A DNA stretch of 64,000 bases from Pecten maximus (lineage: Eukaryota): assembly GCF_902652985.1 (NCBI RefSeq), contig NC_047020.1:11222001-11286000 (forward strand), read 5' to 3'. Shown here piece by piece: positions 31,901-61,400 of the stretch. Position numbers: made by a program. Position 1 is the first letter of the stretch. Each line of letters starts with the position of its first letter.

Positions 31901-34900
31901 AACCGTGATTTTCGCACCCTTTCCTATTATAACTGTGTAATGCACGTGCGCTTGTACCCAGATATCGTTGTATTAAACGTGTCGTCTCTCTGTGTTTCGG
32001 CATTAGAAAAAAAAACCATTTAAGATGGGAAGACTGACCAAGGAAGAAAGGGGGATTGCAGTTGGAATGTTAAAAGCTGCCAGTTCTTCGAGACAGACAA
32101 GTACATACTATGATGAGAAATACATTTCAATTCATATTATTCACATAGTTTAACACGATACATGCTTGATAATTGTTTGGTTGATGTTATAGGTTGCCCG
32201 AATGTTAAACAGTTCACTCTTTACCATCTTGAATTTCTCGAGGAATTACCAACAAACTGGCACAGATATCGACCTTAGACGCCAACAAAGACGAAGAGGT
32301 ACGTCCGCTCTTCAGGAAAGAAATATAAGACAGTCTCATCTCAGATCAACATTAAACTGTAAATGATATGAATTAAATTTCATTTCTCATCATAGCATCA
32401 AGATTTACCGCAGTTGCGCAAACAGCAAGAACAACACGTGGAACACATCGAAGACGAGTTAATACTGTGAGAAACCGAAATTAGATTCACAAAGGTAGAC
32501 TGGGCCAATATTCTTTTTGTTGACAGATTAAAGTCAACCTCCATGCTGCCGATGGCAGCAAAAGAGTGTAAAGAAGGAAAGCTGAGCGGAATACCTTATC
32601 CAGAGGGACAGTTTGGAGGTGGATCAATGATTATTAGGGTATTGCCATGCATACAAAGACTCGTATTCGAGGAAATTGAACGGCGGCTTCGTCTTACAGC
32701 TAGTTGCAGTACTCCATATCAGGGGCAACCGCGAAATGATTCTAACCCATGACAATGCACCTTGTCATGCCGCGAGGGTCGCCCAGCAAATGTTGTACAA
32801 CAACAACATACGATATCTGCAATGACCAGCTCGCGGAAGCCACACGCGGTGCTGATTGAGATTGTAACTTTCACTTTTGTTTGTGAGGGTCTTGTAGCTG
32901 CAATATCTACTTCAATCAGTTGAATACTTTGAAATAATTAAATACTTTTTATGATACGAATAATTAAATTGATGATTTAAAAAAAAATTAAAACAATATG
33001 ATTGTTCATTATCATTTTTATTCAAAACGTTAGTGACAATTTAGAACTTTAGTTACGTGTAGATAAACCCCTTCCCCTCTACCCTTCATGAATATAAATA
33101 TCTGTTATGTTGTTCATGAATTATATTCTCATTTTCAGCTAGTATTGTTTTAATATAATTGTTACTTTAATCATATACACACCTCAGATGCTGAATTCCT
33201 TAGAAATCCAGGCCTATTGGCACGATGACAGGAATGGTCCAGCGAGAATTTAATGTAAAGGTATGTAGTAGATGTTGTATTGAATGTTGAGTTGAGGAAT
33301 GACTAAGTCGTGGTTTGTAGGTTCTTCTGTTTATACGTGTTGATGAATATGTACCATGTTGTATCCATACAATGTACGGCTAGGAGCGGCTGGAACAACG
33401 ACCCGGAAGTGTTTTGGCGTTAAACGTCACTACGAAGTTTATACCTAGACGGAAATAACATAAAACTTATCAACAAAACATCTTTTCCCGAATGATTTCT
33501 GACCTCTTTGGACAAACTTTGTATTACTAATAACCCATTTCCATGCACGGGTGACCTGAAATGGTTCCTAGACTGGATAAAATCTACAAAGCATACAACA
33601 ATCATCAATTATCATCGGAGGTACACATGTAGGTATCATCCAGAGATGAACAATGTGTTGTTGAAGGAATAAAACCCTACTTCGGAGATGTGTTCGAATT
33701 TGGATTACCCACTCGTCAGAAACATCTGTATTGGTATTTTTGTTCCATCAGCTATCATCCTCATTGCTGTATCGATGGCATATAAGTTCCGGTTCCGATT
33801 GAACTACTGGCTGCACATCCTTGGAATAAAGAGAGTCGGCTACAAAAGGATTCGCGACGATGCTGATTATAAATTTGACGCTTTCGTAAATACACTGTAA
33901 TTCAAACGACGACAGATACTTCATTTTCAATCATATGGTCCGAGAACTGGAAAGAAAAGCTGGATGTAGACTGTGCAGACATGAAGTGACTTTGACGTGG
34001 GTAATTTTATTCTAAACAATATCACAAGAAACCTTGAACTAAGCAAGAACATAATTCAATATTATCCCTTGTCTTTCTAAACAGCGAATAGTGTAAATTT
34101 GAACTTGCATTGACACAGTCCAGAACTACACAGTAGGGTCCAGGAGTGCTGCCTGTGATACTGCTGGAAGAATTGGACACATCCATACTTTCGTCCTTTG
34201 TACGGGCGATTCTAGACACGGTCACCCATGTTCAAAATCCTGTTGATGAGTGGAAGTTGAATCCAAAAATATCATATGCTTTCGTGAATCATCCAGCCTG
34301 ATTCATCATTCCGCTAATCTCTTTTAATTTGGGTTTTCGTTAAAATTTGCGTTAGTTAAATCAAGTATATTTACAGTATCCATAGAAAAAGTCTAGTTTT
34401 TCACATTCATATCACAATATTTACCATTGTATGGCACTGCCACTATATAACCTTACCAATTCAGTTGCGAGTTCACCAGCTTATGAACTGCCAAATGAAA
34501 TTGAAAATTAAAAAAAAAAAAATCGCACGACAAATAAAAAATCGCAGATGGTAAATATAAGCATTGAACGGCTTTCAGTTGGCATTCATAGTCAATATGA
34601 ATGCCAACTGAAAGCCGTTTAATGCTTAAATGTACCTTTGTAGTTATTAGGACTACTTGGTCATCGATTAACACCTAGTGCATGTCATACCAAAGTTAAG
34701 TGAAGGTCAGAGAATTAACATTGTTAACTTTAACAACAGAAGAAAAGAGGTTTTATACGAACTCTCTTTTAAACTGGAATTACTTAAACCACACTCTTAG
34801 TATACTTAATATATATATATAACATGTTGCCGATATGTGGAGTCTCTCTTCAAAGTGGTTATAGGATTGTCCGTGTGCAACAAGAAGAAAACAAATATTC

Positions 34901-58400: not shown

Positions 58401-61400
58401 TCTTTTCAGAAAACGCAAATCCGAAAAATATGTCCCACTGATACTTTCTATTACATTATTACTAAGTGTTATTGATTGGATCGATGAGTTATGTAATCCT
58501 AAAAACATGTCACCTGGAATGGTCTCCCAGTGATTGGATTTCAGCTGAACAGTCTCTATTCTAGGTGTTAACAGCAAGATTGGAGAAATCATGTCTGGCT
58601 TTAATTCATAAGATCCACTGATCTCCAAAGTAGACAAGTTAGTTAATTTGACAAATGCATCTGGGTCGACGATGTGGGTCAATGTGTCGACAAAATGTAA
58701 TCCTATGACACGGATTAAAGTAAGATTAGACAAAAACTTCGCCGTTATATTTGGAAAGTTAGTTTTTGTAAATATAACAGTTTGTGCATATGCGGGTAAA
58801 ACTGGAATATACTTCATGTCACTTCCTGTACAGTTCACCAGCTTCGATTTTGGAGAACATTTACACATGGTCGGAGGACACTGATCGATGTGACGAAATG
58901 TTTCACATTGATGACAAGTCTGGTAGAACACAAGCAGTAGGAGCAGCGTTCCTAAATGCTGATTCATGATGCCACTTGTAATATGGACCTGCAATAAGAA
59001 AATTGACGTTATAATTAATCCTGAAAGCGATTCGATATACAATGTAAGTTCCTAGTTCCTATAAATAAATATTGTAATAATTAAATCCTTCATCCCTGTG
59101 AAAATGTCTTTTCTGTTAAACAAATGCTTTCGTCGCTATAATGGCCCGGTGGGGACTGTTTTCAAAATTTTAAATGTTTGGTGTTAAATAGTCAATGCCA
59201 CTATAAAATGAAAACAAAATGCTTATTCAAACTCTGCTACCAGACGTGGTAATAACCAGGTCAAATTTAGACGCCAGTATACAGAATGGTAAGATAACAA
59301 TTCATAACACCTTTACACTAATAGATAGAAAATAAATAGAACTAAAGCTTCCAACCAGATTGAACAAAGAATTCCTCATATATAAATATTGTTATATTCC
59401 TTTCCACGAGATTCTTCAGAGGAGAGAGGAAATATATGGCTCTAAACCTGCTGACAAACATGCACATAAACAGGTAAAAATCTAGGATGGTAACCCAACG
59501 ATGCAGAGACAGATTGTCTGGGCCCATATTCATAAAAAATCTTAGTTAAATACTTAAGTTTGACTTAAGTTATACTTAACTATACATATTTTACTTAGTT
59601 AAATAAAACTTAAGTTAGAACTTAAGTACTATTCATAAACGACTTAAGTATTTACTTAGTACATACTTAGCTAAGTATAAATATTTAAGTATTTCATGTA
59701 GTTGCTATGTTGTTGTTAAGTAGCTGCGGGATGTTTTTCGTAAAACGTGAAATTTGGCGCCAGCGTTCCTGGCATTCCAAGACGATCAGAATCCGGAAAT
59801 GGCAACAGTAAAAAAGACGAGATGACCAAACTGGACAAAGGACGAATGTCTGGCGATGGTGAGGCTAGTAGTTTACATGTTTACAAGTGAAAGAAAACAT
59901 GTCATACGTGGACGATTTAAGGACGGAGTGTCGGCATCTGCAAATAGGCAAACGTTGGTTCGGGTTGCCGGCAGATTGAACAGTTCAAATGCATTAACCA
60001 GGAGAGAGCCGGAAGAATGCACAAACATTAGACTAACCTCGTCGTTCAGGCCAAAAATGCACATAGCGTGTTTCTTCGTAGAGTCAAGGAGAACAAGTAC
60101 GTTTTAGTTACTTTCCACTAAACCAAACATCAGTTGAAATGTACATATCAAACCCCTAGTTACATTTTACGATCTGTAAAATCCCGCTTCCCAAACATGC
60201 TAGAACTGTCACAACAATCAATTGTTATTTATTTAAAACTTTCGTTTCTTTATCAAAGCAGGGGAGTACTAAATACATGACAGGGCCGGAATGCACATGC
60301 ACGGGTTTTAAGTTAAAGTAAAAGTAACCTCAATGTTTTTTAATACACAGGTAAGAACTCTATAGATATACATTTTTTGTAATTAATGAATAAAAGATAC
60401 AATAAAACTTTGAGGCAGTATTTCTGGTTTGTCAAAGTCAGCAAGAGAAACAAAAATGAAGTTTTATCTAAATAAAATTTGATTGGTATGTGGGTATGTT
60501 CATTATAAACTACAATTGCTCCGTGTCGTTGTAGTATTGACTTCGTAATGGGCCTTGACGACAGTGAGATTGACTCCTCCATCTTCGATTCAAACCTTTA
60601 CATCTCGTTTTAAATGATTGAATACAACAAAATCTGAAGTTAATGATTTTTTTCTTAAAAACAAGTTGATTTCTGTCGATTTCGTGAAGTCATCTTTCAC
60701 CTGAGTTGTTAAGTATTTACTTAAGTATTTTTAAAGGAAGTTAAACATCCTCATGACGTTACTTAACTTTAAGTAAAAACTTAAGTAATACTTAAGCTTA
60801 AGTATTTTTATGAATACAAGTTAAGATAAAACCTTGAATTAAGTAAATACTTAAGTTTATTTTAGTACTTAAGTACAAATGTCCTACTTAAGTATTTACT
60901 TAAGTGAAATACTTAACTTAAGTTTTTTTATGAATATGGGCCCTGGTCTTTGTGACATTACAGATTCATTCAATCTAACCAGGAAAAAGGGTTTTCAAAT
61001 AAAGTATACTTCCAGGGAAAAGACATTTTGTTTTGTTTACCTACTCGGAGTAGAATTTTTTTTTACGTCCTATCAACAGCCTCATTTAAGGACGTGCCAG
61101 GTTTGGAGGCGGAGAAAACCCACTGGCTAACAGACAGTACCAGGCAACTGCCCCATTAGGTTTTCGAACTTACAACCCAGAAGTGGAGGGCTAGTGATAA
61201 AATGTCGGGATACCTTAACTACTCAGCAACCACGCACCTTTTATTCGACTGAAATAACACATTACATAAGATAGCAGTACAAAGTTATTTACATATATTC
61301 CTGTGACCTGTTTACCACAATAGATGTTTTTTCACTATATCAGATGGGGTGTAAGATTAAGACCCAAAGGAAATGTCAATAATATGCAAACTTTTGTTAA

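What the first reader, a model, noticed from the sequence alone, without database searches (positions are those of the whole stretch)
33388..58967. Three-copy TLR cluster with patchwork identity: homogenised blocks around a divergent LRR core
Seen: the two full-length TLRs are colinear with the same length, but similarity is blocky. 40936-41114 is identical to the reverse complement of 58462-58640 (179 bp, including silent sites) and the LRRCT-TM region is nearly identical. The central LRRs (~41240-41810) carry many amino-acid changes (NFRKV/QFLEI, QKNYLQKLDGS/RRNYLRDLDKY, QNLNLDR/RTLLLDK, LRL/LML, QNTF/EDTA), often at variable LxxLxLxxN positions. Known: interlocus gene conversion plus diversifying selection shapes vertebrate TLR1/TLR6. 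Inference: a conversion-driven receptor diversification system in a mollusc, possibly helped by the inverted (tail-to-tail) arrangement.
[Added by the scan's program, not by the reader: the finding's places include an assembly gap (unread letters, written N; its length is only estimated) at 43063 to 43208. Whether the letters on both sides are continuous or in frame is not known: test that first.]
Basis: partly seen in the sequence, partly recalled or inferred. Interest (0 to 1): 0.7.

Follow-up and report, generated by a model that had tools for sequence, protein, structure and literature searches.

The report
Gene conversion among scallop TLR copies
Three neighbouring Toll-like receptor gene copies in a scallop genome, only one of them intact, have swapped short stretches of DNA, a process well known from vertebrate TLR genes; there is no sign of a special diversity-generating system.

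Summary
The patchwork is real. Copy A (40609-42745, +) and copy B (58967-56832, -) differ at 189 of 2136 coding sites. They are identical over 179 bp (40936-41114) and differ at 7 of 396 bp over 41984-42379. No permutation out of 2000 reached either tract. Silent sites follow the same blocks: regional dS runs from 0.05 to 0.50. A/B identity does not track between-species conservation.

- A carries one extra base near 41542 and is frameshifted, so only B (711 aa) is intact.
- Copy C (33131-34252) is a decayed pseudogene that still shares a 132-bp run identical to A.
- The N gap lies 318 bp beyond A's stop, in no copy, but the A/B linkage and orientation depend on it.
- dN/dS is below 1 in every block, so diversifying selection is not shown.

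Best reading: interlocus gene conversion in a lineage-specific scallop TLR cluster, as in mammalian TLR1/TLR6. Argopecten paralogues are homogenised at protein level over the same LRRCT-TM block. An assembly or polishing artefact cannot be excluded without reads. This is a new member of a known kind, of modest interest.

The parts
33131..33254 (+). Copy C, upstream remnant, homologous to the intron-like DNA upstream of A (40322-40446)
   Evidence: 69% identity over 129 bp, E 2e-14. This shows C is a tandem A-like locus that lost about 1.36 kb, not a stray fragment.
33385..34252 (+). Copy C, pseudogene remnant of the coding exon (equivalent to A 41810-42744: last LRRs, LRRCT, TM, TIR)
   Evidence: 88% identity to A and to B. 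Blocks are 82-93% identical, with a net +7 bp indel, two 1-bp deletions, a 72-bp deletion and 5 in-frame stops. C-unique changes fall 23/18/29 on codon positions 1/2/3.
33697..33828 (+). Tract in C identical to A 42122-42253 (TM and juxtamembrane coding region)
   Evidence: 132-bp identical run against 94 differences in 833 aligned sites; 0 of 20000 permutations reach it.
40579..40587 (+). Splice-acceptor-like TTATTGCAG, 21 nt before A's ATG. A/B homology starts about 16 bp upstream of it.
   Evidence: The same 15-mer occurs exactly twice in the window, here and at 58983-58997 (-); 0 matches expected by chance. Sequence context. Its function as an acceptor is inferred.
40609..42745 (+). Copy A, TLR coding exon with one extra base at about 41542 (frameshift; the first ORF stops at 41562)
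   Evidence: ORFs 40609-41562 and 41555-42745. Single-base gap in the A/B alignment. With that base skipped the reading is colinear with B, with 85 of 711 residues different.
40936..41114 (+). Conversion tract 1 in A (codons 110-169, LRR3-LRR5); partner in B is 58462-58640
   Evidence: 179 of 179 identical; 0 of 2000 permutations. It covers residues 121-150, the second least conserved window between species (0.46, after residues 1-30 at 0.32).
41149..41869 (+). Divergent LRR core of A (codons 181-420, LRR6-LRR14); partner in B is 57708-58427
   Evidence: dS 0.498 and 0.244, dN 0.110 and 0.115, dN/dS 0.22 and 0.47 for codons 181-320 and 321-420.
41984..42379 (+). Conversion tract 2 in A (codons 459-590: LRRCT, TM helix, juxtamembrane, start of TIR); partner in B is 57198-57593
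   Evidence: 396 bp with 7 differences; 0 of 2000 permutations. dS is 0.052 over codons 421-580. Predicted helix 508-534, read here as the TM helix.
43063..43208 (.). Assembly gap (146 N) between A/C and B, lying in intergenic DNA
   Evidence: The right flank is an ATG-type microsatellite, 43248-43605.
56832..58967 (-). Copy B, intact TLR coding exon (711 aa): signal-like helix, 16 LRRs, LRRCT, TM, TIR
   Evidence: ORF. Pfam LRR_8 6e-33 and TIR 3.5e-17. Best relatives are scallop TLRs at 72%. AlphaFold2 mean pLDDT 86.7 with 16 short LRR-phase strands from 63-67 to 444-446.
58989..58997 (-). Splice-acceptor-like TTATTGCAG, 21 nt before B's ATG
   Evidence: context.

Best explanation
This is a small, lineage-specific cluster of single-exon Toll-like receptor paralogues in a scallop (family Pectinidae). 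B is intact. A has one recent frameshift. C is an old, decayed tandem copy. The copies are old enough that their flanks no longer align. Ectopic homologous recombination (interlocus gene conversion) has since copied short tracts of about 130-400 bp between the coding exons.

At least two tracts link A and B: LRR3-5, and LRRCT-TM-juxtamembrane-early TIR. One nested tract links A and C. The divergent central LRRs are the part that recent conversion has not overwritten. Their amino-acid differences come with high silent divergence and dN/dS below 1.

Shown: the mosaic of identity, including silent sites; its statistical excess; its independence from protein constraint; and the involvement of an unconstrained pseudogene. 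Inferred: the recombinational mechanism, the direction and timing of transfers, and that the tracts exist in the animal rather than only in the assembly.
For: 1. Two A/B segments exceed all 2000 permutations. The 179-bp identity is exact.
2. Silent sites are uneven. The fraction of degenerate third positions that differ, in codons 1-60, 61-180, 181-320, 321-420, 421-480, 481-580 and 581-711, is 0.191, 0.037, 0.229, 0.080, 0.038, 0.011 and 0.112. The longest difference-free run is 90 sites (33 of 20000 permutations reach it). Max-chi2 is 35.1 (1 of 300). Nei-Gojobori dS by region is 0.417, 0.093, 0.498, 0.244, 0.052 and 0.201.
3. Constraint does not explain the pattern. A/B identity against between-species amino-acid identity gives Spearman 0.26, P=0.23. 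Residues 121-150 have the second lowest between-species identity (0.46), yet A and B are 100% identical there.
4. C evolves neutrally (unique changes 23/18/29 by codon position) yet has a 132-bp run identical to A (0 of 20000 permutations).
5. Homology is confined to the exon. No A/B flank similarity was found upstream (best E 0.25); downstream there is only a 37-bp patch (E 0.005). The least similar 30-codon windows of the exon still keep 74-79% nucleotide identity.
6. An independent genome shows the same pattern. In Argopecten irradians, three paralogues show ectodomain identity of 0.48-0.62 (residues 81-300), about equal to the between-species mean. Over residues 481-580 they show 0.92-0.95 against 0.66-0.77 between species. 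They form a 100/96 clade only in the TM-block tree. The ectodomain rejects P0004+P0005 (p-AU 0.021) and the TIR segment rejects P0005+P0006 (p-AU 0.028).
7. The same kind of tract (last LRRs, C-terminal cap, TM, TIR) is the published conversion region of mammalian TLR1/TLR6 (PMC2077338, abstract read).
Against: - No reads or second assembly of this species were available, so cross-polishing or local collapse between paralogues could have produced the exactly identical runs.
- With four-fold sites alone (252 sites, 28 differences) the run test holds (110 of 20000), but max-chi2 does not (60 of 300).
- A and B are sisters in every segment tree (whole 99/98, ectodomain 99/99, core 84/89; unresolved in the TM and TIR trees). 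There is therefore no topological incongruence for the window's own pair.
- Sites where A or B alone matches C do not cluster: 21 runs against a permutation mean of 19.5, and 14874 of 20000 permutations had as few runs or fewer.
- The Argopecten tests are at protein level only, and their groups were named after the trees had been seen.
- GC3 is higher in tract 2 (0.47) than in the LRRs (0.31-0.38) but not in tract 1 (0.35-0.37). Biased conversion is therefore neither supported nor refuted.
Confidence: 0.7

Rival explanations
1. Assembly artefact. The identical blocks arose when reads of one paralogue were used to build or polish the other, or when a collapsed or chimeric consensus was formed. 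The frameshift in A would then be a residual sequencing error.
For: The scaffold has a gap 318 bp from A. A carries a single-base indel. Three runs are perfectly identical (179, 144, 132 bp). No read data could be examined.
Against: - Tract 2 is not perfect: 7 differences in 396 bp.
- C, which is about 11% diverged from A overall (94 of 833 sites), is an unlikely target for mis-mapped reads, yet it shares the 132-bp run.
- The extra base in A is a G inside an A-run, not a homopolymer length change.
- An independently assembled genome (Argopecten) shows paralogue homogenisation over the same LRRCT-TM block, without identity at protein level (0.92-0.95).
Confidence: 0.13
2. One reading: a conversion-driven receptor diversification system. 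Conversion would shuffle modules while positive selection diversifies the ligand-binding LRRs, aided by the inverted arrangement.
For: - Conversion tracts exist.
- One tract lies inside the ectodomain (LRR3-5).
- Differences are more frequent at LxxLxLxxN x-positions than elsewhere (23 of 96 against 36 of 296, P=0.008).
- Passages of the bivalve TLR survey PMC10279657 and of the review PMC12521104 report diversifying selection in TLR ectodomains.
Against: - dN/dS is below 1 in all six regions (0.20-0.47) and in every 40-codon window. The maximum is 0.89, on 2 synonymous and 6 non-synonymous changes.
- x-codons of the core give 0.44.
- The x-position excess disappears against non-motif positions (P=0.11) and mirrors ordinary variability among other scallop homologues (0.44, 0.34 and 0.16 for x, other and scaffold positions).
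- Two of the three copies are broken.
- The directly oriented pair A/C converts too.
- The orientation rests on a scaffold join.
Confidence: 0.08
3. No transfer at all. The mosaic reflects regional differences in mutation rate or nucleotide-level constraint (codon usage, an embedded regulatory or RNA element) along a pair that duplicated once.
For: GC3 differs along the gene (0.31-0.47). The juxtamembrane peptide is well conserved between species (sequences).
Against: - Silent-site divergence ranges about tenfold between regions.
- The exactly identical tract 1 covers the second least conserved protein window between species.
- The unconstrained pseudogene C shares the TM tract.
- Between species the TM block is only 0.66-0.77 identical.
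Confidence: 0.03
4. Chimeric genes made by unequal crossing-over, or staggered partial duplications of different ages, rather than non-reciprocal conversion.
For: A and C are tandem, about 7.19 kb apart, with shared upstream DNA. C has lost an internal 1.36 kb. Such clusters do undergo unequal exchange (general knowledge).
Against: The pattern alternates divergent, identical, divergent, identical and intermediate within 2.1 kb. That would need several exchanges. A/B flanks share no homology that could guide reciprocal exchange. A nested 132-bp tract in C is typical of conversion.
Confidence: 0.06

Closest known systems
Interlocus gene conversion between mammalian TLR1 and TLR6 (Kruithof et al. 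2007, PMC2077338; abstract read)
   Same: Neighbouring TLR paralogues show a divergent N-terminal or central ligand-binding LRR region and a homogenised block. That block covers the last LRRs, the C-terminal cap, the TM domain and part of the TIR domain, and it recurs independently in several species. Here tract 2 covers codons 459-590, and Argopecten shows the same block at protein level.
   Different: - Protostome (bivalve) genes that are not orthologous to TLR1/6.
- The tract is shorter: about 130 codons here against about 300 residues.
- The rest of the TIR domain is not homogenised (dS 0.20).
- There is a second tract in the N-terminal LRRs.
- One partner is frameshifted and a dead pseudogene also takes part.
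- The arrangement is convergent rather than tandem, if the scaffold is right.
Gene conversion in the vertebrate TLR1 family, including avian TLR1A/B and TLR2A/B (Huang et al. 2011, PMC3125219; abstract and section list read)
   Same: A history of duplication plus conversion, with mostly purifying selection.
   Different: That work had many species and DNA-level site models. Here only pairwise dN/dS was possible.
Expanded bivalve TLR repertoires made by tandem duplication (Saco et al. 2023, PMC10279657; term search and passages read)
   Same: Lineage-specific, clustered TLR paralogues of the short single-exon type. Best hits are scallop proteins annotated as 'toll-like receptor 13' or 'toll-like receptor 4'.
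   Different: That paper's main text contains no occurrence of 'gene conversion', 'recombination' or 'concerted'. Its supplements were not seen. The present locus adds conversion to the duplication-and-divergence picture.
Sea urchin TLR multigene families (Buckley and Rast 2012, PMC3367398; passages read)
   Same: Invertebrate TLR clusters with pseudogenes, a variable ectodomain and a conserved TIR domain.
   Different: Positive selection was shown there by M7/M8 tests in large subfamilies. Here there are three copies and omega is below 1. 'Conversion' does not occur in that paper's main text.

Membership tests
Toll-like receptor (LRR-TM-TIR type I receptor) | Extracellular leucine-rich repeats | tested here: met
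   Pfam LRR_8 E 6e-33 over 5 stretches, and LRR_4 1.5e-17. The model has 16 short strands in phase with LxxLxLxxN motifs. Foldseek top hits are TLR5, TLR7, TLR8, TLR3 and TLR13 ectodomains, E 1e-18 to 1e-12.
Toll-like receptor (LRR-TM-TIR type I receptor) | Cytoplasmic TIR domain | tested here: met
   Pfam TIR E 3.5e-17 (residues 566-684) and TIR_2 2.7e-11.
Toll-like receptor (LRR-TM-TIR type I receptor) | Single TM helix between the LRRCT and the TIR domain, and an N-terminal signal peptide | tested here: inconclusive
   The model predicts helix 508-534 between the cysteine-bearing cap (C454, C456, C482 invariant and C503 nearly invariant in alignment A1) and the TIR domain, and a hydrophobic N-terminal helix 2-23. 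No dedicated TM or signal-peptide predictor was run.
Orthologue of vertebrate TLR13 or TLR4 (the names carried by the nearest database proteins) | Closer to that vertebrate TLR than to other TLRs | tested here: not met
   Vertebrate hits are 24-28% identical and of mixed names (TLR13, TLR21, TLR2, TLR3, TLR5). Fold hits are equally mixed. The names are automatic labels, not orthology.
Interlocus (ectopic) gene conversion | Tracts of identity between paralogues longer than expected from the overall divergence | tested here: met
   0 of 2000 permutations for two A/B tracts. 0 of 20000 for the A/C run.
Interlocus (ectopic) gene conversion | Homogenisation includes silent sites and is not explained by constraint | tested here: met
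   The pseudogene C takes part.
Interlocus (ectopic) gene conversion | Different segments support different trees | tested here: inconclusive
   A and B are sisters or unresolved in all segments. The runs test on A/B/C site patterns is not significant. Incongruence is seen among Argopecten paralogues, with post hoc groups (p-AU 0.021 and 0.028).
Interlocus (ectopic) gene conversion | Tracts verified in reads or independent clones | not testable with these tools
   No reads, second assembly or eukaryotic contig collection were available.
Diversifying (positive) selection on a receptor | dN/dS above 1 at ligand-facing codons | tested here: not met
   Pairwise only: x-codons 0.44 (core) and 0.48 (all LRRs); regions 0.20-0.47. 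Site models need DNA from more sequences, which I did not have.

The most novel reading that the evidence does not exclude
The broken copies (frameshifted A, decayed C) are kept as a template reservoir. Short templated transfers from them into the single intact receptor B generate new B alleles in the germ line, or even somatically in haemocytes. This would resemble pseudogene-templated diversification of chicken immunoglobulin genes (a recalled comparison). The evidence here shows that a dead copy does exchange tracts with a live-type copy, but it gives no direction, no frequency and nothing on somatic events.
Probability: 0.04. Interest if true: 0.85.

Novelty: new member of a known kind. 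Interest (0 to 1): 0.35.

Why it matters
Bivalve TLR repertoires are the largest known among animals. In the papers I could search they are explained by tandem duplication plus divergence and selection. If conversion also acts, three consequences follow:
- Species-specific clustering of paralogues in trees overstates how recent the duplications are.
- Site-wise dN/dS tests on such clusters can be misled by recombination.
- The repeated homogenisation of the LRRCT-TM-juxtamembrane module in two scallop genera, matching the mammalian TLR1/TLR6 region, would point to a shared requirement, such as a common partner or dimer interface, or to a conversion hot spot.

For genome annotation the practical result is that only one of the 'three TLRs' is an intact gene.

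Tried and rejected
- A and B as two haplotypes of one locus joined by mistake at the gap. 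Rejected: 2 kb of flanks on each side share nothing beyond a 37-bp patch.
- C as a random 5'-truncated fragment. Rejected: it keeps upstream DNA homologous to A's upstream region.
- Topology switching among A, B and C along the 3' 833 aligned sites. The runs test was not significant: 21 runs against a mean of 19.5.
- Max-chi2 on four-fold sites alone was not significant (60 of 300).
- A faster protein clock in the frameshifted copy was not seen: 30 A-derived, 29 B-derived and 26 ambiguous changes. In the 3' region, unique changes number 19 for A and 18 for B, both biased to third positions.
- GC-biased conversion signature: GC3 is raised in tract 2 only, so this is inconclusive.
- Monophyly of the three Argopecten paralogues in the ectodomain was not rejected (p-AU 0.41).
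- tRNA scan of the window: none found.
- Literature searches for conversion or concerted evolution of TLRs in bivalves, molluscs, scallops or oysters found no paper on the subject among those listed. Neither did term searches inside PMC10279657, PMC12521104 and PMC3367398. An amphioxus preprint mentions conversion only for LTR dating.
GENECONV/RDP on orthologous clusters and codon site models were therefore not run.

Full report
WHAT IS THERE

The window is scallop DNA. The intact ORF at 58967-56832 (-), copy B, encodes 711 aa (P0001). Its best relatives are TLRs of Mizuhopecten yessoensis, Ylistrum balloti and Argopecten irradians at 71-72% identity, and of Mimachlamys nobilis at 64-66%. No protein closer than 72% was listed.

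B has Pfam LRR_8 (6e-33), LRR_4 and TIR (3.5e-17) domains. An AlphaFold2 model built on 33 homologues (alignment A1) has mean pLDDT 86.7. It shows an N-terminal hydrophobic helix (2-23), 16 short strands in phase with LxxLxLxxN motifs, a cysteine-bearing cap, a helix at 508-534 read here as the TM helix, and a TIR fold. Foldseek against the PDB returns vertebrate TLR5, TLR7, TLR8, TLR3 and TLR13 ectodomains and other LRR proteins, with no single preferred orthologue. The database names 'TLR13' and 'TLR4' are therefore labels, not orthology.

The coding sequence lies in one exon, so no spliced model had to be joined. Both A and B carry the identical 15-mer TTATTGCAGGTCCAT, with its CAG 21 nt before the ATG. 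I read this as the acceptor of a 5'-UTR intron. That is an inference, and the upstream exon was not sought.

THE THREE COPIES

tblastn of B against the window finds exactly three loci.

- **Copy A (40609-42745, +)** is colinear with B but 1 bp longer. The A/B alignment has a single-base gap at about 41542, a G inside an A-run. This splits A into ORFs 40609-41562 and 41555-42745.
- **The frameshift in A is young, polymorphic or a sequence error.** Amino-acid changes polarised by nine other scallop proteins are symmetrical: 30 A-derived, 29 B-derived, 26 ambiguous. In the 3' part, where C serves as outgroup, A-unique changes (6/3/10 by codon position) are as biased to third positions as B-unique changes (4/2/12).
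- **Copy C is a dead gene.** Its exon remnant (33385-34252, +) has five in-frame stops, a net +7 bp indel, two 1-bp deletions and a 72-bp deletion. Its own changes fall evenly on the three codon positions (23/18/29).
- **C is not a stray fragment.** 33131-33254 matches the DNA upstream of A's exon (40322-40446; 69% over 129 bp, E 2e-14). C is thus a tandem A-like locus about 7.19 kb upstream of A that has lost the equivalent of A 40450-41809.

THE GAP

The N run 43063-43208 lies 318 bp after A's stop codon and 312 bp beyond the end of A/B homology. It interrupts no copy and no frame. Its right flank is an ATG-type microsatellite. The gap does separate A and C from B. The 14-kb spacing and the tail-to-tail orientation are therefore only as good as the scaffold join, which I could not test.

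IS THE PATCHWORK REAL AND MORE THAN CHANCE?

Yes.

- **Overall divergence.** A and B differ at 189 of 2136 coding sites.
- **Exact identity.** 40936-41114 is identical to the reverse complement of 58462-58640 (179 of 179).
- **Identical runs.** Runs of 144 and 132 identical bases lie at 42050-42193 and 42203-42334.
- **Segment test.** With a GENECONV-like segment score (match +1, mismatch -20), two segments stand out: 41984-42379 (396 bp, 7 differences) and 40936-41114 (179 bp, 0 differences). Each was reached by 0 of 2000 permutations. The next four segments are ordinary, reached by 1784 or more of 2000.
- **Silent sites follow the blocks.** Nei-Gojobori dS is 0.417, 0.093, 0.498, 0.244, 0.052 and 0.201 for codons 1-60, 61-180, 181-320, 321-420, 421-580 and 581-711.
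- **Degenerate third positions.** At 601 such positions in codons with the same amino acid, 60 differ: 25 of 109 in codons 181-320 but 1 of 94 in codons 481-580. The longest difference-free run (90 sites) was reached by 33 of 20000 permutations, and the max-chi2 value (35.1) by 1 of 300.
- **Four-fold sites alone.** With 252 sites and 28 differences, the run test holds (110 of 20000) but max-chi2 does not (60 of 300).
- **Constraint is not the cause.** Over 23 windows of 30 codons, A/B identity does not correlate with between-species amino-acid identity (Spearman 0.26, P=0.23). Residues 121-150 have the second lowest between-species identity of the windows (0.46, after residues 1-30 at 0.32), yet A and B are 100% identical there. 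Residues 391-420 are the most conserved (0.86), yet A and B are only 86.7% identical at nucleotide level.

THE PSEUDOGENE TAKES PART

Over 833 aligned sites C differs from A at 94. It is nevertheless identical to A for 132 bp (A 42122-42253 = C 33697-33828). None of 20000 permutations reached this. For third positions alone the run is 47 sites, reached by 198 of 20000. This tract is nested inside A/B tract 2. Because C is unconstrained, selection cannot have kept the stretch unchanged.

Against this, sites where only A or only B agrees with C do not cluster along the alignment (21 runs; permutation mean 19.5). The triplet therefore gives no significant switch of topology.

HOMOLOGY STOPS AT THE EXON

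A/B similarity begins about 16 bp upstream of the acceptor-like site and ends 6 bp after the stop codon. Two kilobases of flank on either side give nothing upstream (best E 0.25) and one 37-bp patch downstream (E 0.005). Yet the least similar 30-codon windows of the exon keep 74-79% nucleotide identity. A and C share upstream DNA at only 69%, against 88% in the exon. Both facts fit old loci whose exons have been repeatedly homogenised. The short intron alignment makes this suggestive only.

OTHER SCALLOPS

In trees of A, B and 11 homologues, paralogues group by species: A+B 99/98, three Argopecten irradians proteins 97/98, four Mimachlamys nobilis proteins 100/100.

In Argopecten the pattern along the protein is uneven. 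Within-species identity in the ectodomain (0.48-0.62, residues 81-300) equals the between-species mean. Over residues 481-580 it is 0.92-0.95, against 0.66-0.77 between species. The three proteins form a 100/96 clade with very short branches in the TM-block tree, but not in the ectodomain or core trees. The ectodomain supports P0005+P0006 (91/97) and rejects P0004+P0005 (p-AU 0.021). The TIR segment supports P0004+P0005 (96/94) and rejects P0005+P0006 (p-AU 0.028).

These groups were chosen after seeing the trees, and the data are proteins only. Monophyly of the three in the ectodomain is not rejected (p 0.41). Even so, an independently assembled genome shows homogenisation of the same LRRCT-TM-juxtamembrane block, which argues against a purely local assembly artefact.

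DIVERSIFYING SELECTION?

It is not shown.

- The divergent LRR core has the highest dS, and its dN/dS is 0.22 (codons 181-320) and 0.47 (codons 321-420).
- No 40-codon window exceeds 1. The maximum is 0.89, resting on 2 synonymous and 6 non-synonymous changes.
The excess is significant against all other positions (odds ratio 2.3, P=0.008). It is not significant against non-motif positions (P=0.11).
- The same ranking holds for ordinary variation among the other scallop proteins: 0.44, 0.34 and 0.16.
- dN/dS of the x codons is 0.44 in the core.

The plain reading is that the core is the older, unconverted part, evolving under moderate purifying selection.

MECHANISM AND RIVALS

I commit to interlocus gene conversion at confidence 0.70. 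By this I mean homologous repair that copies tracts of about 130-400 bp between paralogous exons.

- **Assembly or polishing artefact (0.13).** This is the main rival and needs reads to exclude. Against it: tract 2 is imperfect, the roughly 11%-diverged C takes part, and Argopecten shows a parallel pattern.
- **Conversion plus diversifying-selection 'system' (0.08).**
- **Chimeras made by unequal exchange (0.06).**
- **Regional mutation or constraint without transfer (0.03).**

The inverted arrangement is not needed, because the direct pair A/C also shares a tract.

COMPARISON WITH WHAT IS KNOWN

The closest case is mammalian TLR1/TLR6. Independent conversions in nine species homogenise LRR16-19, the C-terminal cap, the TM domain and most of the TIR domain, while the N-terminal LRRs diverge (PMC2077338, abstract). 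The vertebrate TLR1 family more broadly shows the same mix of duplication and conversion (PMC3125219, abstract).

For bivalves, four library searches listed no paper on conversion or concerted evolution of TLRs. The terms do not occur in the main text of the bivalve TLR survey PMC10279657, the mollusc TLR review PMC12521104 or the echinoderm study PMC3367398. Supplements were not seen, and subscription journals are not covered.

VERDICT

This is a new member of a known kind, with interest 0.35.

Noticed in passing
window 22580-23191 (-) and 19173-19718 (-): An open frame with four TNFR/NGFR cysteine-rich repeats (Pfam TNFR_c6, E 9e-30). About 3 kb downstream on the same strand lies an open frame with a hydrophobic TM-like stretch. 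Together they look like exons of a TNF-receptor-like gene next to the TLR cluster.
   Followed up: partly
window 4843-31794, 37092-37630, 45890-47083, 53686-54237: The window is unusually rich in long minisatellite arrays. Examples: 57 bp x 58 (28494-31794), 31 bp x 52 (26643-28248), 51 bp x 32 (11290-12936), 39 bp x 34 (20739-22101), 22 bp x 55 (45890-47083). The 27-bp array 18021-19142 (41.6 copies, 97% matches) is open in several frames on both strands.
   Followed up: no
window 48414-48761 (-) and 51863-52204 (+): Transposon remnants lie between A and B. One is a GIY-YIG nuclease-like frame (E 5.8e-05). The other is an endonuclease/reverse-transcriptase-type frame (Exo_endo_phos_2, E 7.9e-06, just below Pfam's cut-off).
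   Followed up: partly
window 43209-43611: The right edge of the assembly gap is an ATG/ATT-type microsatellite of about 120 units. This is a likely reason for the assembly break.
   Followed up: no
window 6891-7031 and 36010-36148: A 142-bp dispersed repeat in inverted orientation, 82% identical. It is unrelated to the TLR copies.
   Followed up: no
window about 42860-42900: Downstream of A's stop is a short stretch that I recalled as resembling the 5' half of a tRNA, as in tRNA-derived SINEs. ARAGORN finds no tRNA anywhere in the window. The resemblance rests on memory only.
   Followed up: partly
window 42194 and 42202 (B: 57383 and 57375): Inside the otherwise identical 285-bp TM block, the only two A/B differences are both non-synonymous (AVSMAYK in A, ALSIAYK in B). 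At both sites A agrees with the pseudogene C. Either B acquired two TM substitutions after the conversion, or a later small A/C transfer introduced them.
   Followed up: partly
proteins P0004, P0005, P0006 (Argopecten irradians; each row gives a longest contig of 47,328,628 bp): The three paralogues show mosaic relationships: ectodomain P0005+P0006, TIR P0004+P0005, and a near-identical TM block. This suggests the same process in another scallop genus.
   Followed up: partly
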